The notes under the pieces are model-generated. The model searched no databases. It saw only the letters and a list, made by a program, of their open reading frames with translations, and had not been told where the DNA came from. DNA of 63,368 nucleotides, filler included. It is 7 parts of 7 records of this genome, joined end to end, with 100 filler letters (N's around TTAATTAATTAA, not from the genome) between each part and the next. Parts side by side here need not be neighbours in the genome. Positions count along the whole stretch, not along the records: positions 23,448 to 33,699 come from SRR31156797_21658; 6 more parts are not named here. One strand, given 5' to 3'. This document shows positions 12,827 through 44,123 of this stretch, piece by piece. How positions within the stretch are numbered: position 1 is the stretch's first letter; each line of letters begins with the position of its first letter. The position numbers and the translations under genes are program-made.

Positions 12827-14590
12827 ATGATCGACAACCGCAACATGATCCTGGCGATCGTTCTTTCCGTTGTCATTCTATTGGGATTCAACCTTTGGAA
12901 TGCCGACCGCTATCAGGAAGAAGCCCTTAATCAGCAGACGGCTGAACAATCCCAATTGCCGCAGGCGCCGGCTCAGTCTCCCGAAGGGACGACCGCCCCC
13001 GGCCAGCAGCTGGCGCCGCAGGTACCGGGCCAGGTCCCGACGGCGGGTGTTGCGGCCGATCAGGCGGGCCCGTCCCGCGAGGCGGTCAAGGCTCAGACAA
13101 AACGCATCAGTATCAGAACCCCCCGCCTTCATGGGTCGCTGTCGTTGACGGGCGGGCGAATCGACGATCTGACCCTGGCCGACTACCGCGAAACCCTCGA
13201 TCCCGAAAGCAATGAAATCACCCTTCTGATGCCTCACGGACTTCCGAACACCTACTTCGCCGAGTTCGGATGGGTTCCGGGCGGAGAAATTGCGGTGCCG
13301 ACAGGCGATTCCGTATGGACCGCCGATTCGGATACCCTGGCGCCCGGTTCGCCGGTGACGCTGACGTGGGACAACAGGCAAGGCGTGAAATTCCTGCGCA
13401 CCTACACCGTCGACGAAAATTACATGTTCACGGTAAAGCAGCAGGTCGAAAACAATGGCGCCGAGGCCGTATCGTTGTTCCCCTATGGCCTCATTTCCCG
13501 CTGGCAAACGCCCGAGACAACGCGGTTCTACATCCTGCATGAAGGTCTGCTCGGCGTCTTTGATGAAACCCTCGAAGAAATCGACTACGACGATCTTCAG
13601 GAAAAAGCGAAAATCGAAAAGACCTCGACCGGCGGCTGGATCGGCATTACCGACAAATACTGGTTGGCTGCCCTGGTCCCGGCCCAAGACGTCGAGGTCA
13701 AGTCGCGGTTCACCCATCACCGGGAAAACGGCAACGACCGGTACCAAGTTGATTATCTTGGCGGTGCCGTGACGGTGGCGCCGGGAGCGACGGTAGCGGT
13801 CGAGAACCATCTCTTCGCCGGTGCCAAACAAGTGAAGTTGCTCGATGCCTACGAGCAGAGCCTGGGCGTCGACCGGTTCGACCTGGCCATCGATTTCGGC
13901 TGGTTTTATTTCCTGACCAAACCGATCTTCTATTTGCTGATCTATCTGCAAGATTACGTTGGCAATTTCGGCATCGCCATTCTGTTGCTGACCGTCGTCA
14001 TCAAGTTGTTGTTCTTCCCGTTGGCCAACAAGTCCTATCGGGCCATGAGCAAGATGAAGAAGCTGCAGCCCGAAATGCAGAAAATGCGCGAGCGATTCGG
14101 CGACGATCGTCAGCGCATGAACCAAGAGATGATGGCGCTGTATAAGCGCGAAAAAGCCAATCCGGCATCGGGCTGCCTGCCTATGCTGATTCAGATTCCG
14201 GTCTTCTTTTCGCTCTACAAGGTGCTTTTCGTGACCATTGAAATGCGCCAGGCGCCCTTCTTTGGCTGGATCAAGGATCTGTCCGCCCAGGACCCGACAA
14301 GCCTGTTCAACCTGTTCGGTCTGATCCCTTGGGATCCGTCGATGATTGTTCCCGACGCCCTCAATATCGGCATATGGCCCCTTATCATGGGCATCTCCAT
14401 GTTCCTGCAGCAGAAACTCAATCCACAGCCGGCCGATCCGGTTCAGGCGAAGATTTTCATGTTCCTGCCGCTGATCTTCACGTTCCTGCTGGCCCAATTC
14501 CCGGCCGGCCTGGTCATCTACTGGGCCTGGAACAATGTGCTGTCGATCCTGCAGCAATGGGTGATCATGAAACGCTCGGGCGCCGTCTGA
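12827..14590 (+). CDS. yidC: Membrane protein insertase
   Basis: IDFGWFYFLTKP, GCLPMLIQIPVFF, AGLVIYWAWNN; ATG at 12827. Confidence 0.96.
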   Translation: MIDNRNMILAIVLSVVILLGFNLWNADRYQEEALNQQTAEQSQLPQAPAQSPEGTTAPGQQLAPQVPGQVPTAGVAADQAGPSREAVKAQTKRISIRTPRLHGSLSLTGGRIDDLTLADYRETLDPESNEITLLMPHGLPNTYFAEFGWVPGGEIAVPTGDSVWTADSDTLAPGSPVTLTWDNRQGVKFLRTYTVDENYMFTVKQQVENNGAEAVSLFPYGLISRWQTPETTRFYILHEGLLGVFDETLEEIDYDDLQEKAKIEKTSTGGWIGITDKYWLAALVPAQDVEVKSRFTHHRENGNDRYQVDYLGGAVTVAPGATVAVENHLFAGAKQVKLLDAYEQSLGVDRFDLAIDFGWFYFLTKPIFYLLIYLQDYVGNFGIAILLLTVVIKLLFFPLANKSYRAMSKMKKLQPEMQKMRERFGDDRQRMNQEMMALYKREKANPASGCLPMLIQIPVFFSLYKVLFVTIEMRQAPFFGWIKDLSAQDPTSLFNLFGLIPWDPSMIVPDALNIGIWPLIMGISMFLQQKLNPQPADPVQAKIFMFLPLIFTFLLAQFPAGLVIYWAWNNVLSILQQWVIMKRSGAV

Positions 14591-23347: not shown

Positions 23348-23447
23348 NNNNNNNNNNNNNNNNNNNNNNNNNNNNNNNNNNNNNNNNNNNNTTAATTAAT
23401 TAANNNNNNNNNNNNNNNNNNNNNNNNNNNNNNNNNNNNNNNNNNNN
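23348..23447. other. Artificial contig linker
   Basis: N44-TTAATTAATTAA-N44. Confidence 0.99.
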
Positions 23448-23482
23448 TCGGTCATATTCGGCTCTGCCGAAAATGACCTGAA

Positions 23483-24367
23483 TTAAAGTCCTGCGGCAGC
23501 GATAATGTCGGGAACAATTTCTTCCTTTCCAATGGCCATTACGTGGACGCCGCTACAAATATTCTCCTCCTTGATGCGGGCGATCATCCGACCCGCGATT
23601 TCCACGCCCGTAGCAAGCGCTTGTCCCTTGGGGGCGTCCGCCATTTCCTGTATCAGGTCGGCTGGAACTGTAACCCCTGGTACGTTTTTATTCATAAACC
23701 GGGCCATGCCGGCGGAGGTCAAAAGTATTATTCCCGCCAATACAGGCACGCCGAATGGACGCGCATATTCCATGAATGAAGCAAAGCGGTCCAGGTCGTA
23801 CACGGCCTGGGTTTGAATGAATTCGGCGCCGGCGTCCAGTTTCTTTTCAAATTTAATCTGTTGCGGCTCCAGGGGTTCGGCCTCCGGCGTTACAATGGCG
23901 CCGGCGCAAAAGGAAACGCTGCCCTCGAGTTGATTTCCGGCGAGGTCGTTTCCCTTTTCAAGGGTGCGGATGGTGCTCAGCAATTGCGAGGATTCCAAAT
24001 CAAATACACCCTTGGCTTCCTTGTGATCCCCGAATATGACCGAATCCCCTGTCAGGCACAGCACGTTGGTCACGCCCCTTGAATAGGCGAATAGGAGGTC
24101 CGCCTGCAAAGCGAGCCGGTTTCTGTCCCGGCAGGTCATTTGCAAAATGGGTTCGCCGCCCATTTCTTTAACAAGAATGGCGCCCCCGAGCGAAGGAAAA
24201 CGCATGACGCTGCTCTGATGATCGGTCAGATTCAAGGCATGGACTTTATCCTTGAGCAAGTCCACGTGATGTTTCGTTTTCTCCAGGTTGACCCCCTTTG
24301 GCGGGGCAACTTCGGCCGTGACAATGAACTCTCCGGATTTAAGAGCGTCTTTAAATGTTCCAGCCAT
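23483..24367 (-). CDS. metF: Methylene-tetrahydrofolate reductase catalytic subunit
   Basis: EVAPPKG, QMTCRDRNR, LTGD, FIQTQ, GVHVM. Confidence 0.92.
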   Translation of the reverse strand: MAGTFKDALKSGEFIVTAEVAPPKGVNLEKTKHHVDLLKDKVHALNLTDHQSSVMRFPSLGGAILVKEMGGEPILQMTCRDRNRLALQADLLFAYSRGVTNVLCLTGDSVIFGDHKEAKGVFDLESSQLLSTIRTLEKGNDLAGNQLEGSVSFCAGAIVTPEAEPLEPQQIKFEKKLDAGAEFIQTQAVYDLDRFASFMEYARPFGVPVLAGIILLTSAGMARFMNKNVPGVTVPADLIQEMADAPKGQALATGVEIAGRMIARIKEENICSGVHVMAIGKEEIVPDIIAAAGL

Positions 24368-24400
24368 TGGCACTCCTTTCTCCCACCTTGCCGGTCCAGC

Positions 24401-25054
24401 TTATTCTTCCGCGGAAACGAATTTGCCCGGTTGGGGTTCAACGTGATAGTTTTTCGGCTGCTGATATCGGCGCATCAGATCGAGACGGTCAAATTGTTTA
24501 AGACGGTTATAAATCAACGTCCACACGCAGTCCTTGTTGCTATCGACCTCGCATTTTCCATTATTGGTCCCGCCGCAAGGTCCGTTGACCAGTCCCTTGT
24601 GACAGGAAGTGACCGGGCACAGCCCCCCGGTTTCACCCAAAATGCACTGGCCGCACTGCACGCATACTTCCTGGAACACGCCCGACGCGCTTTCCTTGCC
24701 GATGAACACGGTATCGAGGGCGGGGATTACGGTTTTGCCCATCTGGCTGCCAATGGTCTGGACGCCGTAAGCACATGACATAATCACAAGAGCTTCGGCA
24801 ATATCCATGAACTCTTTCTGTTCTTCCAGGATTTCGAAGCCCAGTTCGTCGCAGGCAACGGGCACGACCGTTTTACCTGTAATCATTTTCCCCGTCGATG
24901 ACAGCCGTTCGGCCGTTTCTTCCACCTGCTCCAGACCGCCGGTGCGAGTGAGGGTTGTACATGTACCGCACCCGACAATAAAGATGCGAGTATAACCATC
25001 GAGCAAGCGATCGAGTTCTTCATCCGTTTTCTTTTTTGTTATCGAACGAATCAT
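24401..25054 (-). CDS. metV: MTHFR accessory Fe-S/Zn subunit
   Basis: VGCGTC; CVQCGQC..CPVTSCHKGLVNGPCGG..CEV..CVW. Confidence 0.9.
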   Translation of the reverse strand: MIRSITKKKTDEELDRLLDGYTRIFIVGCGTCTTLTRTGGLEQVEETAERLSSTGKMITGKTVVPVACDELGFEILEEQKEFMDIAEALVIMSCAYGVQTIGSQMGKTVIPALDTVFIGKESASGVFQEVCVQCGQCILGETGGLCPVTSCHKGLVNGPCGGTNNGKCEVDSNKDCVWTLIYNRLKQFDRLDLMRRYQQPKNYHVEPQPGKFVSAEE

Positions 25055-25070
25055 ATTAAACTCTCCATTA

Positions 25071-28000
25071 TCATTCGCCTTCCAGATCGCACCTGAGGCA
25101 GCGTCGCGCCTCGTCCCGGGCCAAAATCTCCGTATACCCGGCTTCTACTTCACGGAAATCCTTGACTCGAGCCCTGATATCCGCCTGCGGCAGTTCAATG
25201 CGGCCGGTGAGCGGCACATCAGCCTCTTCCTGTGACAAAAGGACTTCCTCTTCGCCGAGTTCGGTTTTTTCATCCTTGATTACTACTGGAGAATCATCGC
25301 CTCTCAAGTACTTATCAATGGCCAGGGCGGCCCTCCTACCGGACCCGATAGCCCTGATTATAAAAGTGGGGCCGGTGGTAAAATCGCCGCCGGCAAAAAT
25401 CCCGGGGACATTTGTGGCAAGACTGTTTTCATCCACTCGAAGCGTCCCCCACATAGCCCGTTCCAATCCTTCATCCTCGGAAAGAAAATCCAGATCCGGC
25501 GCCTGGCCGATGGATATGATCAGCGTGTCGCAGCCGACGACCATCCTTTCTTCATCATCAAACGTCGGCCTGAAACGGCCTTCCATATCAAAGACCGACA
25601 AGCAGCGTATGAATTCAACTCCCTTGACTTTTCCGTCTTCTATGAGAACCTGCCTGGGCCCCCAGGAGTTATCAATTACAACGCCTTCTTCCTCGGCCTC
25701 TTCGACATCCTTTGTCCAGGCCGGCATTTCATTGCGCTTTTCCAGGCAGGCAGCCCTGACCCTTCCTCCGCCCAGCCGCCTGGCCGTCCGGGCTACGTCC
25801 ATGGCCACGTTTCCGCCTCCTATGACGAGCACGCTGTGCCCGACCTCAATGTCGGCGTCCTGCTTGGCCATGGCCAGGAATTCCAGACCGTATAACATTC
25901 CTTCGGGTTTTTCTTCTTCACCGGGAATGCCCACGGATTTGGCCGCCTGCGCGCCCGCGGCGATGAATACTGCTCCATATCCTTCATTGAGCAGATCGTG
26001 GACCGTGTGGTTGCGGTCAATGGGCGAGTTATACAGGATTTCCACGCCCGCACTGACAATGTAACCCACGTCTTGCGCCAGGATTTCCGTAGGAAGCCTG
26101 AACTCGGGAATCGTCACGCCGGTCATTCCCCCGGCCCTGTCGCCGGCTTCGAAAACAACTGATTCATAACCCAACTTGCGCAGGAAATAGGCGCAGGTCA
26201 GCCCGGCCGGTCCGGCGCCGACAATAGCGACTTTTTCTTTTCTGACGAGCGGATACGGTTTTTCCAAAATGGAATAATGAGAATAGTACTGATCCGTGGC
26301 AAACCGTTTTAACGCCCGTATGGCCACGGGATCGTCAAGCTCGCCCCTCCTGCATTTCGTCTCGCACGGATGGACGCATATTCGACCGCAAACCGCGGGG
26401 AAGGGGTTTCTTTCCCTGATTATTTGGACGGCTTTAACATAGTCGCCCTCGGAAATGGCGGCGACATAGTTCGGAACATCTATGCCCGCGGGGCAAGCGT
26501 GCTGACAAGCCGAAATAACCATGGAATCGCACACGGCCGCCGGACAGTGATACTCGTTTATGTGAGCTTCATATTCTTCCCTGAAATATTTAATGGTCGA
26601 AAGCACCGGGTTGGAGCAGCCCTGGCCAAGGCCGCACAAGGACGACTCCATAATGGTGGTTCCTATTTCTTCCAGTTTTTCAATGTCGCCCGGCTTTCCT
26701 TCTCCCCTGGTTATTCTGGTCAGGATGGACAACATCTGCTTGGTGCCCAAACGGCAGGGGAAACATTCACCGCAAGATTCACTCTGAGTAAAGGTCAGGA
26801 AAAAACGGGTCAGGTCGACCATGCATGTGTTTTCGTCCAGGATTATCATCCCGCCCGAACCCATCATGGAGCCGACGGTTTTCAACGACTCGTAATCAAC
26901 AGGCAGGTCCTGGAAGCGGGCCGGAATGGCGCCGCCCGAAGGCCCGCCCATCTGTGCGGCTTTAAACTCTCTCCCCTTGGGAACCCCGCCGCCGACTTCT
27001 TCAATAACTTCCCTGAGAGTAATGCCCATGGGCACTTCGACCAGGCCGGTATTGTTTATCCGGCCGCTAAGGGAAAACACCTTGGTGCCCTTGCTGTTGT
27101 CCGTACCGATTTCGGAATACCATTCCCACCCTTTTTCTATGATGGTTCTGATATTAGCCCATGTTTCAACATTGTTGATATTGGTGGGACAGCCCCAGAG
27201 CCCTGACTGGGCCGGGAAAGGCGGCCTCAATTTGGGCATCCCCCTTTTACCCTCAATGGATTGCATGAGGGCTGTTTCCTCGCCGCAGACAAAAGCGCCC
27301 GCCCCGACTTTGATCTTTAATTCAAAATCGAAGCCGGATCCCAAAATATTTTTGCCTAGCAGGCCGACCTGGCGGCAATGATCGAGGGCCAATTCCAAGT
27401 GCTTGATGGCCGTGGGGTATTCCGCCCGAACGTAGATATAACCAACGGAAGCGCCTATGGCGTACGCTCCGATGGTCATGCCTTCGATGACCAAATGAGG
27501 ATTGCCTTCCAGAACGGCCCGGTCCATAAAGGCGCCCGGATCCCCTTCATCGGCGTTGCATATTATGTATTTCGGCGAGCCGTGGGCGTTTCGGCAAAAG
27601 CGCCACTTGGTCCCGGTGGGAAATCCTGCTCCGCCGCGGCCGCGCAATCCTGACTTTTCTATTACGTCTATAACTTCATCCGGCGACAGGTTGGACAATG
27701 CTCCGGCCAGGGCGCCGTACCCGCCCCTGGATATGTAGTCCTCCATCTTTTTCGGATCGATAAAACCGCTGTCGCGCATGACAATACGCCTTTGCTTGGC
27801 GTAAAACGGGTTTTCCCGGCCGTATACATAGCGCCGGCCCGTGCGCGGATCCGGAAAAAGGAGCCGGCCCAGTATATTGAATTCACCCAGTGTCTGCCCG
27901 ACAATGTCGGCCGCGTCAGTTTCCTCGACCTGCTGATAAAAAATGTCGTAAGGACTTATCACAACAACCGGCCCGCGCTGACAAAAACCCGGGCACCCGA

Positions 28001-28196
28001 CAGGTTTGACTTCTACGTCGTTTGACAGCCCGCGATTTTCAAGTTCCGAGCCCAGGGCGTCAAAAATCTTTTCAGCCCCCAGGGCGCGGCACCCCGTGTC
28101 CACGCAGACGTTGACTGTAACCCTGTTCGGGTCGCGTCCCAGGACCAGGGACTGCCGATACCTTTCCAGATCCTGACTATCGGAGAGACGCTGCAT
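25071..28196 (-). CDS. NuoF/HydB-like FMN-NADH subunit fused to GltD/NfnB-like FAD domain
   Basis: N-terminal thioredoxin-like 2Fe-2S, GRGGAGF, NADEGDPGAFMDR, CGECFPC..CGLG; then CQHACP..CGRICVHPC, GAGPAG, GGGNVAMD, RRCLRC. Confidence 0.9.
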   Translation of the reverse strand: MQRLSDSQDLERYRQSLVLGRDPNRVTVNVCVDTGCRALGAEKIFDALGSELENRGLSNDVEVKPVGCPGFCQRGPVVVISPYDIFYQQVEETDAADIVGQTLGEFNILGRLLFPDPRTGRRYVYGRENPFYAKQRRIVMRDSGFIDPKKMEDYISRGGYGALAGALSNLSPDEVIDVIEKSGLRGRGGAGFPTGTKWRFCRNAHGSPKYIICNADEGDPGAFMDRAVLEGNPHLVIEGMTIGAYAIGASVGYIYVRAEYPTAIKHLELALDHCRQVGLLGKNILGSGFDFELKIKVGAGAFVCGEETALMQSIEGKRGMPKLRPPFPAQSGLWGCPTNINNVETWANIRTIIEKGWEWYSEIGTDNSKGTKVFSLSGRINNTGLVEVPMGITLREVIEEVGGGVPKGREFKAAQMGGPSGGAIPARFQDLPVDYESLKTVGSMMGSGGMIILDENTCMVDLTRFFLTFTQSESCGECFPCRLGTKQMLSILTRITRGEGKPGDIEKLEEIGTTIMESSLCGLGQGCSNPVLSTIKYFREEYEAHINEYHCPAAVCDSMVISACQHACPAGIDVPNYVAAISEGDYVKAVQIIRERNPFPAVCGRICVHPCETKCRRGELDDPVAIRALKRFATDQYYSHYSILEKPYPLVRKEKVAIVGAGPAGLTCAYFLRKLGYESVVFEAGDRAGGMTGVTIPEFRLPTEILAQDVGYIVSAGVEILYNSPIDRNHTVHDLLNEGYGAVFIAAGAQAAKSVGIPGEEEKPEGMLYGLEFLAMAKQDADIEVGHSVLVIGGGNVAMDVARTARRLGGGRVRAACLEKRNEMPAWTKDVEEAEEEGVVIDNSWGPRQVLIEDGKVKGVEFIRCLSVFDMEGRFRPTFDDEERMVVGCDTLIISIGQAPDLDFLSEDEGLERAMWGTLRVDENSLATNVPGIFAGGDFTTGPTFIIRAIGSGRRAALAIDKYLRGDDSPVVIKDEKTELGEEEVLLSQEEADVPLTGRIELPQADIRARVKDFREVEAGYTEILARDEARRCLRCDLEGE

Positions 28197-28199
28197 GGT

Positions 28200-28676
28200 T
28201 TAGTCATCTCCTTTCACATACTGTTCGAGAACGTTATCTATCCTTTTCGGATTCAGGCGGCCGTATACCTGCCCGTTTACGACCATGACCGGCGAGAGGG
28301 CGCAGGCGCCCAGACAGGCGACCGTTTCCAGCGTGAATTCATAATCCTCGGAAGTTTCCCCGTCTTTCAGGTTCAATTGTTTCTGAACCACCCTGAGAAC
28401 GCCCCTGCCTCCCCTGACGTGGCACGCGGTGCCCCGGCAAACGGTTACCGTATTACGTCCTCTTGGCTGGGTATAGAACATGGAGTAAAAACTGATCACG
28501 CCCTGTACGCGCGACGCTGGTATCCCCAAAGCTTCTCCAATAGGCGCCATGGTTTCTTCCGGTATGTATCCGAATTCATCTTGAACCATTTGCAGAATGG
28601 GAATCAAATCGGACTCAGCGTTCCCTTTTTCCAAAATCGGACTCAGCTTGTTAAGATCAATAACGGGAGCCGGCAT
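28200..28676 (-). CDS. NuoE/HydC-like 2Fe-2S subunit
   Basis: CRGTAC...CLGAC. Confidence 0.92.
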   Translation of the reverse strand: MPAPVIDLNKLSPILEKGNAESDLIPILQMVQDEFGYIPEETMAPIGEALGIPASRVQGVISFYSMFYTQPRGRNTVTVCRGTACHVRGGRGVLRVVQKQLNLKDGETSEDYEFTLETVACLGACALSPVMVVNGQVYGRLNPKRIDNVLEQYVKGDD

Positions 28677-28752
28677 ACTTAGCCTCCATTCGCTTCATGG
28701 CCGAATCACAGTCTTTTCATTTTTGCTACCTTGTAGCTTGCTGCGGAGAGCT

Positions 28753-31449
28753 TCATTCCGAAGGTCCGTCGACTTTCTCCAATCCGACCCGGCAGTGTTT
28801 GTTATTAAAAGTTTTACCGGTTTCTTCCCAATCATATTTGAACAGCTTTGCAGGAGAAGCCTCCCTAAAAGAAGAAGGCATGAAAACAATACCCTCGGGC
28901 AGGCGGTCATCGGCCATAGCCGGCAATTCAATCGCATCAAGCTCGTTAAAGACCCTGACTTGATCTCCGCTTTCCATTTGCAGCCGGTCCAGGTCTGCAG
29001 TCGAAATCCCCAAAAAGACTCCGGGAGCGGCTTTCTCAAGTCTCCGCGACCTGGAAGTTCTGCTTCCGCCGCCTATGTGCTGCAGGATATTTCCCTTGAT
29101 CATTATAAAAGGCAGGTCCGTCCCGTCGTCCAATCCGGGGCCGGCGGGGCCGGGCGGCAGAAAAACCGCCTTGCCGTCATCGTGTCCGATGCCATGGGGC
29201 AATGTGTCGCTGACATGTTCCAATCCCGGCCTCGGCCAGAAGAAAGGCTCCTTGCCGGATATCACCGCTGTAACGTCGGAATAGAGCGGAACGACTTTTT
29301 CAATCTCCGTAAGAACTTCTTCCGGAGAGCCATACTTCCATTCTTTCCCCAGCCTTCTGGCCAGGGCGCAGAATATTTCCCAATCCTCGGGGAAGCCGCC
29401 GGGAGAAATGACAGCTTTTTTGAAAGACTGAATGCGGCGCTCCATATTTGAAGCCGTACCGCTTTTTTCGGCCCAGGCGGTTGAAGGGATGACCAAATCG
29501 GCCAGCCTGGCGGTTTCAGTCAGGAACATATCCTGGACGACCAGGAATTCAACATTTTGTAACGCCTTGAGAACGCGGCCTGCATCGGGCATAACAGCGG
29601 CCGGGTTTTCGCAAAAAACATACAGCCCCTTTAGATTCCCTTTTTCCGCGGCCGAAATCATGCTCAACGCATCCAGGCCCGGTGAATCGGGAATTTTGGA
29701 TTCCCAGACTCCGGACAGCATTTCCAATGCCGGCCCGTCATCCAGACTTTTCCGGCCCGGCAGGCAATCGGGGCATATTCCCATGTCCAGGGCGCCCTGG
29801 GCGTTCGCTTCCTTTAAAACAGGCATCAAGCCGGCTTTGTCCTTACCGATGTTTCCCGACAGGAGGGACAGGGCGATTACGAAACCGGCCAGGTCCTTTG
29901 CACCGGCTTGTCCGGCCAGGCCGTTTCCAAAAACAATAAAACCGCTTTGGGAGCCGCAGAACAAACGCGCAACTTTGCGCACATCCTCTTCTTCAACGCC
30001 GCAGGCGTCCAAGGCTTTGTTAAGATTCAATCCTTCCATCGAGGAAACCAGCGACTCATACTCCCTGGTTTTAGAAACCACAAAATGCCGGTCCAGTAAT
30101 TCTTCCTCGATTATTACCTTTATGAGGGCGCTCAAAAGATAGGAATCCGTTGCTATTCGAGGCCGGAGCCAAACTTCCGACCTTGAAACCAGACTTGTAT
30201 CAACGGGATCGACAACAATGATTTTCGATCCCTTTTGGGCTGCCCGCTTTATGTGATAACCCAGGACAGGGGCGGTTTTGGTCGGGTCCGCTCCAATAAC
30301 CAGAATAACGTCGCTTGATTCAACATCCTTGAACGAACTTGTTCCGGCGCAGAAACCTGTTGATTGTTCCAGAGCTTCATAAACGGGCGCCCACGCCGCC
30401 CTGGCCCCGAAATCTATATTGTTGGTTTTAAAAGCTTCACGCGCCAGCTTCTGAAAAAGATAATTCTCTTCATTGGTGCCGCGTGCGCTGCCCATGAAAG
30501 CAAGGCTTTCCGGACCATGACTTTCACTTATGCGGCCGAGTTTTTCGGCAATCATGTCCAGGGCTTCATCCCAGCCGACCGGTTCAAAACCTTCGTCGGT
30601 CCTGACAAGGGGAGTTTGCAATCGATCCTTGCTGTTTACATAGTCGTGCCCGAAATGGCCTTTCACACATAGCGAAATTCCATTGGAGGTATTGTTTTCG
30701 CCAAACGGAGAAACGCCTCTGACGGACATCCGGTCGTGCTCAACATAAATTGAACACCCGCAAGCGCAGAAGGAACAGACGCTCCTGGTCCTGGCGCCCG
30801 GATGATCCAGGCGGTATTTGTCCTTTTCGGCAATGGCGCCTGTTGGACAGACATTAAGGCACGTACCGCAAAAAGTACAGGAAGATTCCTCCAGGGCCTG
30901 GTTGAGAAGCGTGGCCGGGTAAGCGTCAAATCCTCGAAGATTATAATCTATGACTCCTTCGCAGACCACTTCCTGATCCGCCCGGACGCACTTCGCACAC
31001 ATTATGCACTTGGAAAGGTCCCTGCTGAGAAAAGGATTAAGGTCCACAACTCCCGGATGATAAGGCATGGAATCGAGGCCGTGCCCGGCAACGCCCATGC
31101 GGGCGGCCAGGTTGCGCAACTCGCACCGGTTGCCCTTCTCACACACCAGGCATGACTCAGGGTGAGCGGCCATAAGCAGGCGAATTATGTTCTTCCTGTT
31201 TCGAGAGATTCTTTCGGAATCAGTGTCAATGACAATTCCCGGAGCAATCTTCGTAACACAGGCGGGAACAACTACACCCCGTTTGCGGTCTTCAACCTGG
31301 CAGAGCCGGCAGGCGCCGATAGGCCTTAATGCATCATGGTGGCATAGGGTCGGGATATAAATGCCCTGGTCGCGGGCTACTTCGAGGATTGTTTTGCCTT
31401 CCCTGGCGCTGATCGTATTTCCGTTTAAAGTCAGGGTTATCGTATCCAC
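28753..31449 (-). CDS. FdhA/NuoG-like molybdopterin-oxidoreductase-family protein lacking the Cys/Sec ligand
   Basis: N-terminal 2Fe-2S, HxxxCxxCx5C, two 4Fe-4S, CSFCACGC..C; NNIDFGARAAWA replaces NNIDxCARL[C/U]H; GTG start after AGGAGAGG. Confidence 0.85.
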   Translation of the reverse strand: MDTITLTLNGNTISAREGKTILEVARDQGIYIPTLCHHDALRPIGACRLCQVEDRKRGVVVPACVTKIAPGIVIDTDSERISRNRKNIIRLLMAAHPESCLVCEKGNRCELRNLAARMGVAGHGLDSMPYHPGVVDLNPFLSRDLSKCIMCAKCVRADQEVVCEGVIDYNLRGFDAYPATLLNQALEESSCTFCGTCLNVCPTGAIAEKDKYRLDHPGARTRSVCSFCACGCSIYVEHDRMSVRGVSPFGENNTSNGISLCVKGHFGHDYVNSKDRLQTPLVRTDEGFEPVGWDEALDMIAEKLGRISESHGPESLAFMGSARGTNEENYLFQKLAREAFKTNNIDFGARAAWAPVYEALEQSTGFCAGTSSFKDVESSDVILVIGADPTKTAPVLGYHIKRAAQKGSKIIVVDPVDTSLVSRSEVWLRPRIATDSYLLSALIKVIIEEELLDRHFVVSKTREYESLVSSMEGLNLNKALDACGVEEEDVRKVARLFCGSQSGFIVFGNGLAGQAGAKDLAGFVIALSLLSGNIGKDKAGLMPVLKEANAQGALDMGICPDCLPGRKSLDDGPALEMLSGVWESKIPDSPGLDALSMISAAEKGNLKGLYVFCENPAAVMPDAGRVLKALQNVEFLVVQDMFLTETARLADLVIPSTAWAEKSGTASNMERRIQSFKKAVISPGGFPEDWEIFCALARRLGKEWKYGSPEEVLTEIEKVVPLYSDVTAVISGKEPFFWPRPGLEHVSDTLPHGIGHDDGKAVFLPPGPAGPGLDDGTDLPFIMIKGNILQHIGGGSRTSRSRRLEKAAPGVFLGISTADLDRLQMESGDQVRVFNELDAIELPAMADDRLPEGIVFMPSSFREASPAKLFKYDWEETGKTFNNKHCRVGLEKVDGPSE

Positions 31450-31694
31450 GTGCAACCTCTCCTTGACAGTAGAAATACCGGTGAAAATTATATTTCGCCT
31501 GATATGAGGTTTAGAAACGATTTAGTAAATCAGTTACAAACACACAGGATATATATATTCAGATAAAACGGCTTAACAATTCGTGCGAGTGGGAGGAGCC
31601 AATTCTGAAACAGATGAGCGAGATTCCAGCTCTACAACCCATTCAGATCGACAATAAAGAATTTTAATTGATTTTACGTCAGCATTACGATACA

Positions 31695-31723
31695 AGCATA
31701 CAATGAGGTTTTCTCCTTGTCAA
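31695..31723 (-). promoter_or_regulatory. Sigma70 promoter for the oxidoreductase-metVF operon
   Basis: TTGACA-17 bp-TATGCT with TG extended -10 on the minus strand. Confidence 0.6.
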
Positions 31724-31853
31724 GTATTCAATCTCTGGAATCGTAACGAAATTACGCCGCCCCTGTTTGTTCAGATACGGCGGCGCATAATTAACAGGGC
31801 CTGTATCCCGACATAAGCATTACGGAGTTCCGCTAGCAATATTGGGGGGAAAG

Positions 31854-33137
31854 ATGTCTTTCGAAAATACTGAAGAAACATATCTTGACAAGTCCCGCGA
31901 AACCATGCCCTGGAACGAACGTCAAGAGATCCTCGCGTCGAATTTACGGGAAAAAATAGTACAGGCAGCAAGCAAGTCAAAGGCTTACGGGGAAATATTT
32001 GAAAAGGCCGGCGTGGACGCCCGAGACGTCCGGAGCCTTGACGACCTCGCCTCACTGCCCATCGTCCGGATGGGCGACCTTGTGGATCGCCAAAAAGTCG
32101 ACCCGCCTTTCGGAGGTTTTGAGACGGCTTCCCCTGAAGATATCAGGCGCGTGTATATCAACCCCGGGCTTATCTGGCAGCCGGCCGACGTCGACTACCA
32201 GGATGCTTCATGGGCGGAAAGTCTGTGCGGTGCGGGTTTTAAAAAAGGCGACATGATATTGAACACATTCAATTACCACATGTGGCCTTTTGCTTTCATG
32301 CTTGACGACTCAGCCAAGATGATCGGGGCCATTGTAGTCCCGACCGGTGCGGGCAATACGCTCATGCAGGTCAAGATACTGCAGAATTTAGGCATAAAAG
32401 GCTTCATGGGCACGCCCAGTTTTCTTAATACGCTGGCCCAACGCGCCGAAGACATGGGCCTGGATATCAAAAAAGATTTGTCCCTTGAAAGAGCCCTGGT
32501 CGGAGCGGAAATGCTCCCGGAATCCCTGCGCAACAGGCTGGAGAAGAAACTGGGCATGACCATCCGGCAGTCCTATGGAACCGTATTTCTGGGCTGCATT
32601 GGTTATGAATGCTCATACGGCGCGGGCCTTCATATTCCGGATGACGTGATTGTGGAAGTCGTGGACCCCCACAGCGGAAAGCAGGTTGCGCCCGGCGCAG
32701 CGGGCGAAATAGTAGCTACAAAGTTCAACCGGACATTTCCCCTGGTTCGTTTCGCCACAGGCGATTTATCCCAATTCAGTATGGAACCATGTCCCTGCGG
32801 CCGAACGTCGCCGAAGCTGACTCGCATTCTCGGCCGGGTGGACGAAGCCACAAAAGTGCGGGGAACATTCGTACACCCCTGGCAGACGGACGGCGTGATT
32901 GCGCGCTTTCCTGAAGTTTTCAAATACCAGGTGGTCATAACCCGGGAAAATGACGTTGACGTAATGACCTTTATTGTGGAACTAACCGAGGAAATCGATA
33001 ACCCGGCCCGGTTGCAGCACCAGATGGAAAACTACATCAAGGAAATGCTGACTATAAAGGGCAGGGTCAATATGGCGCCACGGGGAACGATCCCCGATTT
33101 CCATAAAAAAATTGAAGACCGCAGAACCTGGGAATAA
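31854..33137 (+). CDS. Phenylacetate-CoA ligase-like adenylate-forming enzyme
   Basis: GTPSF, GAEML, QSYG, RFATGD, CPCGRT, GRVDE..KVRG. Confidence 0.85.
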   Translation: MSFENTEETYLDKSRETMPWNERQEILASNLREKIVQAASKSKAYGEIFEKAGVDARDVRSLDDLASLPIVRMGDLVDRQKVDPPFGGFETASPEDIRRVYINPGLIWQPADVDYQDASWAESLCGAGFKKGDMILNTFNYHMWPFAFMLDDSAKMIGAIVVPTGAGNTLMQVKILQNLGIKGFMGTPSFLNTLAQRAEDMGLDIKKDLSLERALVGAEMLPESLRNRLEKKLGMTIRQSYGTVFLGCIGYECSYGAGLHIPDDVIVEVVDPHSGKQVAPGAAGEIVATKFNRTFPLVRFATGDLSQFSMEPCPCGRTSPKLTRILGRVDEATKVRGTFVHPWQTDGVIARFPEVFKYQVVITRENDVDVMTFIVELTEEIDNPARLQHQMENYIKEMLTIKGRVNMAPRGTIPDFHKKIEDRRTWE

Positions 33138-33146
33138 GAACGCGCT

Positions 33147-33650
33147 ATGGAAAAGATAAAAATCGGCGGCATAATGCAGAGCGACGGCCGGGCCATGGTC
33201 AGGGTTATGTCCGTGCCTGATCACGCGGGCGCGGCCGGGACGATTTTCGGAGCAATGGGTTCGGCCGGTATAAACATTGAACTTATGGTGCAGGTTTTCG
33301 ATTTGGATGAAGCCGGCAACTTCGCCCTGGTCATCGCTCAGAAAGACCTGGACCACGCCTTATCGGTTTTGGAGGAAGTCAAGCCGATTGTCGAAGCACG
33401 GGGCATATCCTATTCACCTGATGTGGCAGTGCTGAGCGTGTTCGGCCCTCACCTGAGAGAAAAGCCGCGAGTTCCCGGGATAATGTTCGCGGCCCTGGCT
33501 TCCGTCGGCATCAGCCCCCTGGCGGTCAGCACTTCCATTTCCAGCGTTTCCTGCGTGGTAGACGGCCCAAACCTTCAACCATCCGTGGATGCTCTGTTGG
33601 AAGTTTTTGATGCGCCTTTCCAGGTTAAGAAGCGGCCAAAGGACTATTAA
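33147..33650 (+). CDS. Tandem ACT-domain protein (aspartokinase-type ACT)
   Basis: VPDHAGAAGTIFGAM; VFGPHL..PRVPGIMFAAL..STSISSVSCVV. Confidence 0.8.
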   Translation: MEKIKIGGIMQSDGRAMVRVMSVPDHAGAAGTIFGAMGSAGINIELMVQVFDLDEAGNFALVIAQKDLDHALSVLEEVKPIVEARGISYSPDVAVLSVFGPHLREKPRVPGIMFAALASVGISPLAVSTSISSVSCVVDGPNLQPSVDALLEVFDAPFQVKKRPKDY

Positions 33651-33699
33651 CTAGAATACCCGGCGGCCTTCCCTCCAGACCGTCCGGACCACGGGCAGA

Positions 33700-33799
33700 N
33701 NNNNNNNNNNNNNNNNNNNNNNNNNNNNNNNNNNNNNNNNNNNTTAATTAATTAANNNNNNNNNNNNNNNNNNNNNNNNNNNNNNNNNNNNNNNNNNNN
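33700..33799. other. Artificial contig linker
   Basis: N44-TTAATTAATTAA-N44. Confidence 0.99.
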
Positions 33800-39252: not shown

Positions 39253-39352
39253 NNNNNNNNNNNNNNNNNNNNNNNNNNNNNNNNNNNNNNNNNNNNTTAA
39301 TTAATTAANNNNNNNNNNNNNNNNNNNNNNNNNNNNNNNNNNNNNNNNNNNN
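39253..39352. other. Artificial contig linker
   Basis: N44-TTAATTAATTAA-N44. Confidence 0.99.
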
Positions 39353-40163: not shown

Positions 40164-40733
40164 TTAATCGATCTCGAACCTCTTTTTCAGGTAATAGCCT
40201 GAATAGATAGCTCCTGCAGGATTATGGGCAAGTACCCTGTCTTTGACAATGAAAGTGGTAACAGGGGCAGCTGAATACTGTGTGAACAGGATGTCATGTC
40301 CTATACAGAGTCCGATAATAAGATTGAGCTGTGTTCCTTTCTTCTCAAGGAGCATTGCCTGCCCTATTGGATTACATGTAGGGTCAAAGGAGTCAGGATG
40401 CAGTTTTTCCAGTTCATATTTCTCTTTGTCTATTGCAGATACTTTGCAGCAGACGGAGAACACCTTAAAATGTTTTTCCAGTATCTTCTGCGTGATCTCT
40501 GCTTCCTTTTCCATGCCTACACAAAAAGCAAGTCCAAGCCTTTCATACCTCATCTCCTTTGCGTATAGGATGATCTCTTCAAGCCTTGTCTTTTCCATAT
40601 AGTGTCGGGCTTCTATTGCAGCTGATGTCCTCATCGATCTGAGTTCATCTCCTTCATAGGCTATGTCATTGCTTATGCCGGCACAGTCTTTGCCCCCTCT
40701 GCAGCCCTTATCGTTACAATACGCACATTTCAT
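40164..40733 (-). CDS. DUF1847 metal-binding protein
   Basis: MKCAYC; TRLEE, AFCVG, CCK, CNPIGQA, GLCIGHD, KDRVLAHNP. Confidence 0.85.
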   Translation of the reverse strand: MKCAYCNDKGCRGGKDCAGISNDIAYEGDELRSMRTSAAIEARHYMEKTRLEEIILYAKEMRYERLGLAFCVGMEKEAEITQKILEKHFKVFSVCCKVSAIDKEKYELEKLHPDSFDPTCNPIGQAMLLEKKGTQLNLIIGLCIGHDILFTQYSAAPVTTFIVKDRVLAHNPAGAIYSGYYLKKRFEID

Positions 40734-41175
40734 TCGATGACCACTTGATGATTTGATAATATCCTTATGTGAAAGCATATATTCCCTCATATGAGATATA
40801 ATATGTGGTGATTTTAGCTTAGAGACCTTTATCGTTGCCGTAGTAATAGGCTTCTTATAGGGTTTTAGGGGGTATATTAAGACATATATTGGCATGTATG
40901 CAAAAATAGTTACATCAAAAAATAATTAATACTATTTAAGTAGCTGCCACAGATATTGTTATTTATAAAAAGCCACATACATACATATACTCTAATGAAT
41001 GTTTATGTAGGTTATTTTGCGTTTTTGTAAACATTAATTATAAAAACAGCATCAATCAACTGCTAGACATCAGATATTGATCATGCACAATTTTTGGATA
41101 TAATGCAACTTCATAAAAACATTTATATGATATTAAGTGATACTAATTTCTAACTGCATTCAAGGAGGTAATAAA

Positions 41176-42441
41176 GTGGAGGCAATTATCATAGGTGGCT
41201 TCTTAGGAAGCGGAAAGACAACGACAGTGATCAACGTAGGTAAAGAACTGGCTGAAAGGGGCAACACGGTTGCAATAATAGTGAACGAAGTCGGTGAAGT
41301 CGGTATTGACGGAGACCTGATCTCAAAATATGGACTTGATACCAAAGAGATAACAAACGGATGTATCTGCTGCACATTGAAAATCAATATGAAAACAACA
41401 CTTACAGAACTTTACAACTCATATAATCCAGATTATATTCTCGTAGAACCATCCGGAATCGCTTTTCCAAATCTTATTAAAAAGGAACTTGAACTGATGG
41501 ACTTCAGGGACAAGTTACAGGTTGCACCTCTTGTCACACTTATAGATGGCAGCAGGTTCAAGGACATTATGAAATCGGTCAAAGTATACGCACTAAGACA
41601 GATTGAAGATGCAGAAATACTGGCCATTAATAAAACAGACCTGATCGAACCTATAAGGGCACCCATTCTTGAGGAATCGGTCCAACAGTTGAATCCGGAA
41701 GCAAAAGTCATCAAAATGTCTTCAAATTCAGGAGATGAAGGTTTCATCAAATTGATGAAAATGATTGCTCCAAATATCATTGCTGAAAAAGAAGCTGTTT
41801 TCAAAAAGGTAAAGGCGGAAGAAACTGTTCATCATGATGACCACCATCACGACGAGCATCATCACGATGGTCACCATGACCACGATCATGAACACCACCA
41901 TACACACTACGACAGTAAAAGTTCCGGACTTGCTTCGTATGCAAACGACTACATGATACTTGAAAAGGATATCGATTCAGAGCTTGCAAAGGAAATAGCT
42001 ATGGAAATAGCCAGGAACGTAAAATCCGAGGTCATCGGATTCAGTCCTGAATTTGTCGGCCACTTAAAAATGTTCCTGGAAACTTCAGCAGAAACTGTAA
42101 AAATAAGTGTAACATCACATTCAGAAGATCCTGCTGTCAATATAATACAAACAGCTGTTCATTCCGGTCCCAGATTTAAGATTCTGACAGCGGTTTCAGG
42201 CATGCATGAAGAAGATCTTGTGCACCTTGTAGATGAAAATGTTGAAAAGGCATTTGCCAGCAGGGATATGGTAGCACAGCGCCTTCATGAGTCCAATGAT
42301 CACGACCATCACCATGATCATGACGATGACCATCATCACGGTCATGGACACAAGCATTTGCACGAAGAAGATGATGCCATGGACGATATCTACGACCATG
42401 ACCTGACAGCTGGCAGTGCAGGAGAAAGCTGCAATCTTTGA
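41176..42441 (+). CDS. CobW/HypB/UreG-family GTPase with two His-rich tracts
   Basis: GGFLGSGKTT, NEVGEVGID, GCICC, EPSG, NKTD; GTG after AAGGAGG. Confidence 0.88.
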   Translation: MEAIIIGGFLGSGKTTTVINVGKELAERGNTVAIIVNEVGEVGIDGDLISKYGLDTKEITNGCICCTLKINMKTTLTELYNSYNPDYILVEPSGIAFPNLIKKELELMDFRDKLQVAPLVTLIDGSRFKDIMKSVKVYALRQIEDAEILAINKTDLIEPIRAPILEESVQQLNPEAKVIKMSSNSGDEGFIKLMKMIAPNIIAEKEAVFKKVKAEETVHHDDHHHDEHHHDGHHDHDHEHHHTHYDSKSSGLASYANDYMILEKDIDSELAKEIAMEIARNVKSEVIGFSPEFVGHLKMFLETSAETVKISVTSHSEDPAVNIIQTAVHSGPRFKILTAVSGMHEEDLVHLVDENVEKAFASRDMVAQRLHESNDHDHHHDHDDDHHHGHGHKHLHEEDDAMDDIYDHDLTAGSAGESCNL

Positions 42442-44122: not shown

Positions 44123-44123
44123 C

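What the first reader, a model, noticed from the sequence alone, without database searches (positions are those of the whole stretch)
23483..31449. Putative electron-bifurcating/transhydrogenase module co-transcribed with MetVF methylene-THF reductase
Seen: five tightly packed same-strand genes (FdhA/NuoG-like, NuoE, NuoF-GltD fusion, metV, metF) behind one sigma70 promoter. Known: MetVF lacks an NADH site and needs a partner. Described partners include RnfC2, HdrABC/MvhD and ferredoxin. NuoEFG/HydABC-like (Bfu) cores do FMN-based bifurcation. Inference: a Bfu-type core supplies electrons to MetVF here, possibly coupling NAD(P)H, ferredoxin and methylene-THF. I do not recognise this MTHFR architecture from characterised enzymes.
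Basis: partly seen in the sequence, partly recalled or inferred. Interest (0 to 1): 0.78.

Follow-up and report, generated by a model that had tools for sequence, protein, structure and literature searches.

The report
Methylene-THF reductase operon with NADH/NADPH module
Five tightly packed genes join the folate enzyme MetVF to an NADH- and NADPH-binding iron-sulfur module built around a dead formate dehydrogenase; a 2021 paper flagged this layout as a possible energy-coupled reductase, but nobody has tested it.

Summary
Five minus-strand genes at 23483-31455 encode an FdhA/NuoG-like protein, a NuoE-like protein, a NuoF::GltD fusion, MetV and MetF, with gaps of 3-76 nt.

- **Linkage:** every fusion orthologue of at least 53% identity that could be evaluated has metV directly downstream. 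That is 6 of 6, 31 of 32 (the miss is a contig end) and 3 of 3 loci. None of 42 more distant fusions does.
- **Single lineages:** the linked fusions and their MetVs each form one clade.
- **Dead FDH:** the FdhA-like subunit lacks the Cys/Sec-His active site in 22 of 22 orthologues but keeps five Fe-S sites.
- **Altered Bfu core:** the NuoF part resembles bifurcating BfuB, but a GltD-type FAD/NADPH module replaces its ferredoxin-side domain.

The layout is not new. Yi et al. 2021 (PMC8515935) named it the unstudied "X-type" MTHFR of Desulfobacterales and Chloroflexi. This scan has also found it on other DNA.

I read it as one five-subunit, probably energy-coupled MTHFR. Subunit contact is untested because the complex prediction never ran.

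The window is a chain of contigs, and only 23448-33699 is true context.

The parts
31695..31723 (-). Sigma-70-like promoter consensus match (TTGACA-17-TATGCT), about 240 nt upstream of the first gene
   Evidence: This is a consensus match only; the count in the region is not clearly above shuffles.
28753..31455 (-). FdhA/NuoG-like (BfuA-like) subunit. It has five conserved Fe-S sites and a degenerate molybdopterin domain without the Cys/Sec-His active site. The likely start is GTG 31449.
   Evidence: Pfam/NCBIfam; alignment to W-FDH 7vw6_A; 0 of 22 orthologues with Cys/Sec-His; Cys conservation; start codon.
28200..28676 (-). NuoE-like (BfuC-like) [2Fe-2S] subunit
   Evidence: PF01257, E 3.8e-50. 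C80 and C85 are kept in 26 of 26, C121 and C125 in 25 of 26 orthologues.
25071..28196 (-). NuoF::GltD fusion. Residues 1-560 are BfuB-like: an N-terminal 2Fe-2S domain, the FMN/NADH site, the [4Fe-4S] B1 site and the H545/C551/C556 signature. Residues 561-1041 are a GltD/NfnA-type module with 2x[4Fe-4S], FAD and a GxGxxA NADPH site.
24401..25054 (-). MetV, the Fe-S subunit of MetVF-type MTHFR, with the NGPCGG motif and 12 invariant Cys
   Evidence: PF12225, E 5.5e-36; sequence; 12 Cys in 24 of 24; motif named in Yi et al. section 13.
23483..24373 (-). MetF, the catalytic MTHFR subunit. The likely start is ATG 24367.
   Evidence: PF02219, E 3.2e-38; sequence; orthologue alignments begin at residue 3.
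23348..23447 (.). Artificial contig spacer (N44-TTAATTAATTAA-N44). The cluster's contig begins at 23448.
33700..33799 (.). Artificial contig spacer. The cluster's contig ends at 33699.

Best explanation
The five genes encode one 'X-type' MetVF methylene-tetrahydrofolate reductase.

MetF reduces methylene-THF, or oxidises methyl-THF. MetV passes electrons through its Fe-S clusters.

I infer that MetV is wired through the five-cluster chain of the dead FdhA-like subunit to the NuoF-type FMN/[4Fe-4S] site, with the NuoE-type [2Fe-2S] beside it. NAD(H) binds at the FMN.

A GltD-type 2x[4Fe-4S]/FAD/NADP(H) module sits where canonical Bfu enzymes carry the ferredoxin-reducing domain.

I commit to an energy-coupled (bifurcating/confurcating) enzyme that links NADH, NADPH and methylene-THF. 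The most likely reaction is 2 NADH + NADP+ + CH2-THF <-> 2 NAD+ + NADPH + CH3-THF. In Wood-Ljungdahl organisms that oxidise acetate it would run backwards.

Shown here: domain content, cofactor-site conservation, loss of the FDH active site, strict gene linkage, and a single origin of the linked clade.

Inferred: that the five proteins form one complex, the electron path, the stoichiometry and the direction.
For: 1. Linkage. All fusion orthologues of at least 53% identity that could be evaluated have metV directly downstream:
- 6 of 6 loci of the genome-contig scan.
- 31 of 32 loci among 301 genomes of the phylum of G001. These are 29 of the top 30 (L101 ends at its contig end) plus L131 and L132.
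- 3 of 3 loci among 301 genomes of the phylum of G004.
- 0 of 42 fusions of 42-54% identity have metV nearby: 8, 18, 16.

2. The cassette, not the neighbourhood, is conserved. The true neighbours on the contig (PaaK-like, ACT) have no match in the related loci.

3. Single lineages. The 28 linked fusions lie on one side of a branch with support 100/100. The 24 linked MetVs split from 8 other MetVs of the same genomes with support 100/99.

4. The FdhA-like subunit has no Cys/Sec-His in 22 of 22 orthologues. It keeps all Cys/His of five Fe-S sites in 22 of 22, including the Molybdop_Fe4S4 cluster next to the lost active site. A subunit that only conducts electrons needs a partner at its far end, and a stand-alone NADH/NADPH transhydrogenase would not need it.

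5. BfuB likeness. The best solved relatives are bifurcating BfuB subunits (7t2r_B 729 bits, 8a6t_B, 7q4v_B, 9n5u_B, 8oh5_B) against about 398 bits for NuoF. The post-B1 'EYEAHI..CPAxxC' stretch aligns only with BfuB chains. H545, C551 and C556 are kept in 26 of 26.

6. The GltD module matches the NADPH module of NfnA: 9bov_A residues 103-567, 328 bits. GGGNxA (GxGxxA, read as an NADP(H) site by Kremp et al.) is kept in 26 of 26.

7. All 5 of 5 related genomes searched carry acetyl-CoA synthase (PF03598). In G001 the cluster's MetV is the only MetV match.

8. Yi et al. 2021 independently proposed this arrangement as a bifurcating MTHFR.
Against: - No enzyme of this type has been purified or assayed. 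Yi et al. call it unstudied, and a search for its name in later papers found none.
- In Sporomusa ovata the stnABC genes lie next to metVF, yet Stn was purified as a stand-alone trimer (passages). Adjacency therefore need not mean a complex.
- The B3/B4 ferredoxin domain is missing. Schut et al. treat it as part of the invariant bifurcating core, and its deletion abolished bifurcation in the T. kivui hydrogenase (PMC11829005 Discussion).
- The related genomes hold further MetVF copies beside HdrA/MvhD genes, so this copy need not be the catabolic one.
- Co-transcription is not shown.
- The window's own genome is not held, so its Wood-Ljungdahl status is unknown.
- The proposed stoichiometry rests on physiological NADPH/NADH potentials that I recall rather than on any call.
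Confidence: 0.45

Rival explanations
1. The five proteins do form one complex, but it is a plain, non-bifurcating NAD(P)H-dependent MTHFR. It would be functionally like the RnfC2-MetVF enzyme of Acetobacterium woodii. NADH or NADPH, at two alternative entry sites, simply reduces methylene-THF through the Fe-S chain with no energy coupling.
For: - All the linkage and clade evidence is the same as for the best explanation.
- The canonical B3/B4 ferredoxin domain is absent. Its loss abolished bifurcation in a hydrogenase.
- A NuoF-related NADH/FMN subunit, RnfC2, already serves MetVF without bifurcation in A. woodii (Yi et al. section 13).
Against: - The BfuB-specific features are strictly conserved: the N-terminal 2Fe-2S domain, H545/C551/C556 and a separate NuoE-like subunit. 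A simple diaphorase would not need them.
- Two different pyridine-nucleotide sites are kept in 26 of 26 orthologues.
- In the oxidative direction, methyl-THF (-200 mV) to NAD+ (-320 mV) is uphill (values from PMC6295475 passages).
Confidence: 0.25
2. The three upstream genes encode a separate Stn/NfnABC-like transhydrogenase in a domain-permuted form. It is merely co-expressed with an ordinary two-subunit, ferredoxin-dependent MetVF and balances the NADH/NADPH(/ferredoxin) pools for the Wood-Ljungdahl pathway.
For: - The domain inventory equals StnABC: NuoE, NuoF, GltD and a NuoG/Fdh-like part.
- In S. ovata stnABC lies directly beside metVF, yet Stn purifies alone as an active transhydrogenase, and StnC has no formate dehydrogenase activity (passages).
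- The solved StnB/StnC and NfnA/NfnB chains are among the best matches.
Against: - The linked clade is never seen without metVF directly downstream in 40 of 41 loci; the miss is a contig end.
- MetV of these clusters is its own lineage.
- With GltD on the NuoF subunit, an NADH/NADPH transhydrogenase would not need the FdhA-like subunit. Yet that subunit's five Fe-S sites are invariant.
- The ferredoxin-side B3/B4 domain of Stn/Nfn is absent.
Confidence: 0.2
3. The upstream genes encode an NAD(P)-linked formate dehydrogenase of the Wood-Ljungdahl methyl branch that happens to sit next to metVF.
For: - Gene 1 is closest to FDH alpha subunits: 7vw6_A at E 6e-138 and TIGR01591 at 541.8 bits.
- The sister clade of fusions (L133, L134, L136, L137) does sit beside an FdhA with in-frame TGA-His and LRGQNNVQG.
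Against: - Ala-Trp replaces Cys/Sec-His in the window, and 0 of 22 linked orthologues keep Cys/Sec-His. By contrast 19 of 19 FdhA proteins from unlinked loci keep it.
- The TIGR01591 score is below its cut-off.
Confidence: 0.02

Closest known systems
'X-type' (group III) MetFV methylenetetrahydrofolate reductase, predicted by Yi et al. 2021 (Microbiol Spectr, PMC8515935; example Dethiosulfatarculus sandiegensis)
   Same: NuoEFG-homologue genes lie directly upstream of metV-metF. The type is found in Desulfobacterales-type bacteria and Chloroflexi, which matches the distribution seen here. Yi et al. speculate that it bifurcates (section 13 read in full).
   Different: The paper gives only a paragraph. 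It does not mention, in the section read, the GltD fusion on NuoF, the dead FDH active site or the missing B3/B4 domain. I could not check the D. sandiegensis genes themselves, nor the paper's Fig. S6 tree.
StnABC / NfnABC (Nfn-Bfu) electron-bifurcating transhydrogenase (S. ovata 8oh5; C. saccharolyticus 9bov; Kremp et al. 2020, Li et al. 2025)
   Same: The four building blocks are the same: NuoE-like, BfuB-type NuoF, a GltD-type FAD/NADPH module and an Fdh-like domain with no working pterin site. In S. ovata the genes also lie beside metVF.
   Different: In Stn/Nfn the GltD module is inserted in the NuoG/Fdh-like subunit and BfuB keeps its B3/B4 ferredoxin domain. Here GltD replaces that domain on BfuB. 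Stn works alone as a trimer, whereas this clade is always followed by metVF.
Selenocysteine FDH with the same NuoE + NuoF::GltD partners (sister clade: L133, L134, L136, L137; uncharacterised as far as my searches show)
   Same: The NuoF::GltD fusion is 52-54% identical and forms the sister branch in the tree. A NuoE gene lies upstream.
   Different: FdhA lies downstream and keeps TGA(Sec)-His and LRGQNNVQG. No metVF is present.
MetFV-HdrABC-MvhD ('6S') MTHFR of Moorella thermoacetica and RnfC2-MetFV ('3S') MTHFR of Acetobacterium woodii
   Same: A MetVF core receives electrons from an added NADH-binding flavin/Fe-S module. The 6S type is also proposed to bifurcate.
   Different: The partner modules are different (Hdr/MvhD or RnfC2). 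MetV of the present clusters is a separate lineage from Hdr/MvhD-linked MetVs in the same genomes.

Membership tests
MetVF-type MTHFR | MetF with the MTHFR TIM-barrel domain (PF02219) | tested here: met
   E 3.2e-38, 132 bits against a cut-off of 24, covering profile positions 2-286 of 287.
MetVF-type MTHFR | MetV with the PF12225 domain, the NGPCGG motif and Cys for two [4Fe-4S] clusters, encoded directly upstream of metF | tested here: met
   PF12225 at E 5.5e-36; 'NGPCGG' is in the translation; 12 Cys are invariant in 24 of 24; feature list from Yi et al..
X-type (group III) MTHFR of Yi et al. 2021 | Genes for NuoE-, NuoF- and NuoG-homologues directly upstream of metV-metF | tested here: met
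   The same order is found in 20 of 20 extended related loci for the three upstream genes, and in 19 of 20 for metV/metF by ORF. The twentieth, L123, is cut by its contig end, and its metV is seen by tblastn as L094.
X-type (group III) MTHFR of Yi et al. 2021 | MetFV falls in phylogenetic group III together with D. sandiegensis | not testable with these tools
   No D. sandiegensis sequence was on hand. I showed only that linked MetVs form their own clade against 8 other MetVs.
Bfu family (BfuABC electron-bifurcating core) | BfuB with an FMN/NAD(H) site and the B1 [4Fe-4S]; BfuC with the C1 [2Fe-2S] | tested here: met
   Complex1_51K and NADH_4Fe-4S domains. C475, C478, C481 and C521 are kept in 26 of 26. 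The four NuoE Cys are kept in 25-26 of 26.
Bfu family (BfuABC electron-bifurcating core) | BfuB-specific extras: the N-terminal thioredoxin-like domain (B5) and the B2-site stretch after B1 | tested here: met
   C31 and C36 are kept in 25 of 26, C68 and C72 in 26 of 26. H545, C551 and C556 are kept in 26 of 26. 'EYEAHI..CPAxxC' aligns only with BfuB chains. Assigning these residues to the B2 site is my own reading of the alignment.
Bfu family (BfuABC electron-bifurcating core) | C-terminal 2x[4Fe-4S] ferredoxin domain of BfuB (B3/B4), the route to ferredoxin | tested here: not met
   After about residue 560 the sequence matches the GltD module of NfnA/StnC (8oh5_C 103-157, 9bov_A 103-158), not the BfuB C-terminus. 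Pfam places Fer4_20 at 553-638, directly after NADH_4Fe-4S.
Nfn-Bfu (StnABC/NfnABC) | GltD-type FAD/NADPH module inserted in the BfuA (NuoG/Fdh-like) subunit | tested here: not met
   Gene 1 has no Pyr_redox/Fer4_20 domain; the module is on the NuoF subunit instead.
Formate dehydrogenase alpha subunit (FdhA) | Mo/W-coordinating Cys or Sec followed by His | tested here: not met
   Ala-Trp in the window. 0 of 22 linked orthologues keep Cys/Sec-His; one, L126, has His-Cys in these two columns. 19 of 19 unlinked FdhA proteins have U/C-His.
Formate dehydrogenase alpha subunit (FdhA) | Active-site Arg of the LRGQNNVQG motif | tested here: inconclusive
   The window reads PVLKEANAQG, with Leu in the Arg column and Lys one position later. 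Many orthologues have Arg one position later.

The most novel reading that the evidence does not exclude
The enzyme is a new kind of flavin-based bifurcation that needs no ferredoxin. NADH delivers a hydride to the NuoF FMN. One electron runs downhill through the dead-FDH Fe-S wire and MetV to MetF and methylene-THF. The other runs uphill through the NuoE cluster and the GltD clusters to FAD and NADP+. The net reaction is 2 NADH + NADP+ + CH2-THF -> 2 NAD+ + NADPH + CH3-THF. In acetate-oxidising sulfate reducers and Dehalococcoidia it would run in reverse, so that NADPH oxidation pays for the uphill oxidation of methyl-THF with NAD+. It would have evolved from a selenocysteine formate dehydrogenase that used the same NuoE/NuoF::GltD module, by loss of the Mo site and recruitment of MetVF.
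Probability: 0.25. Interest if true: 0.8.

Novelty: new member of a known kind. Interest (0 to 1): 0.48.

Why it matters
How the methylene-THF/methyl-THF step of the Wood-Ljungdahl pathway is wired to the cell's redox carriers is a long-standing open point. It bears on whether the step conserves energy in acetogens and how it can run backwards in acetate oxidisers. The step is 120 mV away from NAD(H).

This cassette gives a compact, strictly conserved, five-gene candidate to express and assay. If it couples NADH, NADPH and the folate couple, it would add a ferredoxin-free variant to the Bfu family. It would also change energy budgets for complete-oxidising sulfate reducers and marine Dehalococcoidia.

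What this window adds is modest. It is one more member of a type already flagged in print and found repeatedly in this scan.

Tried and rejected
- **Complex prediction.** The job was the FdhA-like domain (residues 215-900, alignment A2) with MetV (A3) as partner. It never ran, so no result of any kind exists. The queue was full or the machine gave no usable answer.
- **RNA evidence.** No RNA holder is listed for the stretch.
- **Own genome.** None is held for the window.
- **Rfam.** The contig gave 0 matches at E <= 1, so no riboswitch is seen in the roughly 240-nt leader.
- **MetV structure.** The AlphaFold model has mean pLDDT 74. Foldseek against the PDB gave no match at E <= 0.001, only generic Rossmann-like alpha/beta hits. 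The MetV profile finds no solved relative (0 hits at E <= 0.01).
- **Filler comparison.** BLASTP of MetV against the FdhA-like protein found nothing.
- **Formate dehydrogenase reading.** Rejected on active-site loss.
- **Window flanks as context.** The GGDEF, EAL and LysA-like genes lie on another contig, so they say nothing about neighbourhood.
- **Literature: no mention of this arrangement in what I looked at.**
  - PMC5736913: passages and section 16.
  - PMC2702500: passages.
  - PMC6295475: passages.
  - PMC10553843: passages.
  - Schut et al. 2022, PMC9304861: 0 occurrences of tetrahydrofolate, methylene, GltD, fusion or fused in the main text. I read part 1 of 3 of its section 5. Its supplementary clade table was not seen and may list this clade.
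- **Literature: other searches.** A search for the fixed names 'X-type MTHFR', 'MetFV-NuoEFG' and variants found 0 papers. Searches found no biochemical study of the type.

Full report
**1. Observation**

The region holds five ORFs on the minus strand.
- 28753-31455: 900 aa from TTG. It lies 6 nt after AAGGAGAGG and gives an N-terminus matching the orthologue consensus.
- 28200-28676: 158 aa.
- 25071-28196: 1041 aa.
- 24401-25054: 217 aa.
- 23483-24373: 296 aa.

The gaps between them are 76, 3, 16 and 27 nt.

Pfam and NCBIfam identify them as follows.
- An FdhA/NuoG-like protein with a 2Fe-2S domain, a NuoG-type His/Cys cluster, a ferredoxin-type domain, a Molybdop_Fe4S4 domain, and molybdopterin and dinucleotide-binding domains.
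- A NuoE-type [2Fe-2S] protein.
- A NuoF-type FMN/[4Fe-4S] protein fused to a GltD-type module (Fer4_20, Pyr_redox_2).
- MetV (PF12225).
- MetF (PF02219).

A sigma-70-like site lies at 31723-31695, but such sites are not clearly enriched in the region (9 against 5.3 +/- 2.1).

My residue numbers for gene 1 count from the TTG start.

**2. A caveat on context**

The window is not one molecule. Six spacers of the form N44-TTAATTAATTAA-N44 join at least seven contigs.

The cluster's contig is 23448-33699. Besides the five genes it carries only a divergent PaaK-like gene and an ACT-domain gene.

The GGDEF, EAL and LysA-like genes to the left belong to another contig. metF ends 35 nt from the contig end.

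No whole genome is held. The closest named relatives of the fusion protein are Thermodesulfobacteriota MAGs at 78% identity.

**3. The FdhA-like subunit is a dead formate dehydrogenase that keeps its wire**

Against the W-FDH alpha subunit 7vw6_A (E 6e-138), the FDH active-site 'CH' aligns with 'AW' in the window protein.

I aligned 22 metVF-linked orthologues with 11 FdhA proteins from loci without metVF.
- None of the 22 has Cys/Sec-His. One, L126, has His-Cys in these two columns.
- All 11 comparison proteins have it: 8 with an in-frame TGA and 3 with Cys.
- Eight more unlinked FdhA proteins also have it: 7 with TGA and 1 with Cys.

The active-site Arg is ambiguous. The window has Leu in that column and Lys one position later.

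All ligands of five Fe-S sites are kept in 22 of 22.
- C38, C49, C52, C66.
- H98, C102, C105, C111.
- C150, C153, C156 with C203.
- C193, C196, C199.
- C227, C230, C234, C263.

An Asp at position 160, where the fourth Cys of a ferredoxin motif would stand, is nearly invariant.

**4. The NuoF::GltD fusion is BfuB-like, with its ferredoxin-side domain replaced**

The best solved relatives of residues 1-560 are BfuB subunits of bifurcating enzymes: 7t2r_B at 729 bits, then 8a6t_B, 7q4v_B, 9n5u_B and 8oh5_B. Complex-I NuoF scores about 398 bits.

The four Cys of the N-terminal thioredoxin-like domain, the B1 cluster Cys, and H545/C551/C556 are conserved in 25-26 of 26 orthologues. H545/C551/C556 lie in an 'EYEAHI..CPAxxC' stretch that aligns only with BfuB chains.

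From about residue 560 the sequence stops resembling BfuB. It matches the GltD module of NfnA/StnC instead: 9bov_A residues 103-567 at 328 bits.

So the B3/B4 ferredoxin domain is absent. In canonical Bfu enzymes that domain passes low-potential electrons to ferredoxin (PMC11829005 Introduction; Schut et al. 2022 section 5 part 1). In its place stand a 2x[4Fe-4S]/FAD/NADP(H) module and a C-terminal CxxC.
- C564, C568, C603, C607, C611, C615, C1033 and C1036 are kept in 26 of 26.
- GxGxxG at 660-665 and GGGNxA at 793-798 are kept in 26 of 26.
- Kremp et al. read GxGxxA as an NADP(H) site.

**5. The linkage is conserved and specific**

| Sample | Fusions of at least 53% identity with metV directly downstream | More distant full-length fusions with metV or metF nearby |
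|---|---|---|
| genome-contig scan, cut at 600 stretches, best 80 kept | 6 of 6 (L001-L005, L014; four Desulfobacterota-type, two Chloroflexota) | 0 of 8 (43-50% identity) |
| 301 genomes of the phylum of G001 | 29 of the top 30 (56-64%; L101 stops at its contig end), plus L131 and L132 (55%) | 0 of 18 (47-54% identity) |
| 301 genomes of the phylum of G004 | 3 of 3 (55-56%) | 0 of 16 (42-49% identity) |

Further detail on the second sample:
- NuoE lies upstream in 30 of the top 30 loci.
- The FdhA-like C-terminus is found in 28 of 30. L104 is cut by its contig start. L083 has 922 nt upstream with no hit at E <= 1e-8, which I cannot explain.
- metF is found in 26 of 30. The other four loci end before where it would lie.

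Twenty extended loci show the complete five-gene order.

The window's true neighbours have no match in the related loci. So the cassette, not the neighbourhood, is what is conserved.

**6. Trees**

In a maximum-likelihood tree of 54 fusion proteins, the 28 linked ones lie on one side of a branch with support 100/100, in 100% of 200 bootstrap trees.
- Their sister is a group of five (L133-L137).
- The two Chloroflexota rows nest among the others, which suggests transfer between phyla.
- L001 was left out because its fusion gene is split in two frames.

In four of the sister loci an FdhA with TGA-His and LRGQNNVQG lies downstream. L135 is cut by its contig end.

I therefore infer that the cassette derives from, or shares an ancestor with, a selenocysteine formate dehydrogenase that uses the same NuoE and NuoF::GltD partners.

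The 24 linked MetVs separate from 8 other MetVs of the same genomes with support 100/99.

**7. Physiological setting in relatives**

All 5 of 5 related genomes searched have acetyl-CoA synthase (PF03598).

They hold 2-10 MTHFR matches and 1-7 MetV matches. In G001 the cluster's MetV is the only one.

The other MetVF pairs in G002, G003 and G005 sit behind HdrA-like and MvhD genes. Several of those partners also carry a GltD-type module.

**8. What is in print**

Yi et al. [quoted passage not shown] They speculate that it is a bifurcating 'X type', group III of their MetFV tree.

This is the same arrangement in the same taxa. In the section I read, they do not mention the GltD fusion, the dead active site or the missing B3/B4 domain.

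I did not see their supplementary figures and could not check the D. sandiegensis genes.

Kremp et al. 2020 (PMC7483475, passages) describe StnABC, which has the same four building blocks.
- GltD is fused to the NuoG-like subunit.
- The genes lie next to metVF in S. ovata.
- The enzyme was purified as a stand-alone trimer with no formate dehydrogenase activity.

Other papers and searches that came up empty are listed under Tried and rejected.

This scan has met the same cassette on other DNA at least ten times and reached the same reference. I had found the paper myself before looking.

**9. Mechanism**

Shown here:
- Three redox ports are conserved: FMN/NAD(H), FAD/NADP(H) and MetF/folate.
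- An intact Fe-S chain runs through a catalytically dead subunit.
- The three upstream genes always sit beside metVF.

Inferred: MetV docks on the FdhA-like subunit, and electrons pass between MetF and the B1-FMN-C1 site through that chain. I base this on three points.
- The FdhA-like subunit has no function of its own.
- It is dispensable for a simple NADH/NADPH exchange.
- The full-length dead Fdh domain accompanies metVF.

The folate couple (-200 mV) lies above NAD(H) (-320 mV; values). NADP(H) is held more reduced in cells (recalled, not from a call).

The natural use of this geometry is therefore NADH oxidation at FMN. One electron would go downhill to methylene-THF and the other uphill to NADP+. 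In acetate oxidisers the reaction would run in reverse.

Ferredoxin coupling is less likely because its domain is gone, but it is not excluded.

The rivals are a non-bifurcating NAD(P)H-dependent complex, and a separate Stn-like transhydrogenase co-expressed with a ferredoxin-dependent MetVF.

The decisive computation, a controlled complex prediction, never ran. No RNA run was listed.

**10. Verdict**

This is a further member of a gene arrangement already flagged in print but never characterised. The value lies in the sharpened anatomy and a concrete, testable stoichiometry, not in novelty of the arrangement.

Noticed in passing
window 12073-12172, 23348-23447, 33700-33799, 39253-39352, 46966-47065, 56303-56402: Six identical spacers (44 N, TTAATTAATTAA, 44 N) join the window. 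The window is therefore a chain of at least seven contigs joined with a six-frame stop linker. Gene neighbourhoods across these points are not real. The low-GC stretch at 38-46 kb (0.39-0.42 against about 0.55) may simply be other contigs of the bin.
   Followed up: yes
L133:5604-8216, L134:7208-9883, L136:3-2675 (minus), L137:7346-10021: The sister clade of the fusion has the order NuoE, NuoF::GltD, then a full FdhA with in-frame TGA-His and LRGQNNVQG. This would be a selenocysteine formate dehydrogenase with an NADH+NADPH module. I found no description of it in the searches made.
   Followed up: partly
L152:86-4279, L159:4758-6866, L162:5603-10051, L160:11-1571, L156:7327-8886: Genomes that carry the cassette hold other MetV/MetF pairs. 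Some sit behind HdrA-like/MvhD genes that also carry GltD-type NADPH modules, including a 1397-aa GltD-HdrA fusion and a 702-aa GltD-MvhD fusion. One MetV lies right after a NiFe hydrogenase large subunit and HycI. One protein is a MetF-MetV fusion of 519 aa.
   Followed up: partly
L002:5952-6827, L004:4866-5729, L131:10504-11178, L132:10491-11189: Some relatives have an extra, divergent MetF-like gene (28-36% identity) directly upstream of the FdhA-like gene. The window has none, since a divergent PaaK-like gene follows instead.
   Followed up: no
window 28753-31455, residue 160 of the FdhA-like protein: The fourth ligand position of the first ferredoxin-type CxxCxxCxxxC motif is Asp. This is nearly invariant among 22 orthologues, which hints at an Asp-ligated or 3Fe cluster.
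   Followed up: no
window 40164-46835: On other contigs of the window lie two CobW-family GTPases, two CbiX-type chelatases, a DUF1847 protein and a 440-aa molybdopterin-oxidoreductase fragment without neighbours. These are cofactor-metal genes of unknown relation to the cluster.
   Followed up: no
L001:6729-9456 and 9992-13193; G001:C2:11796-12676: In L001 both the FdhA-like gene and the fusion gene are split between two frames, by frameshift or assembly error. The same genome has a second MTHFR match with one in-frame TGA.
   Followed up: no
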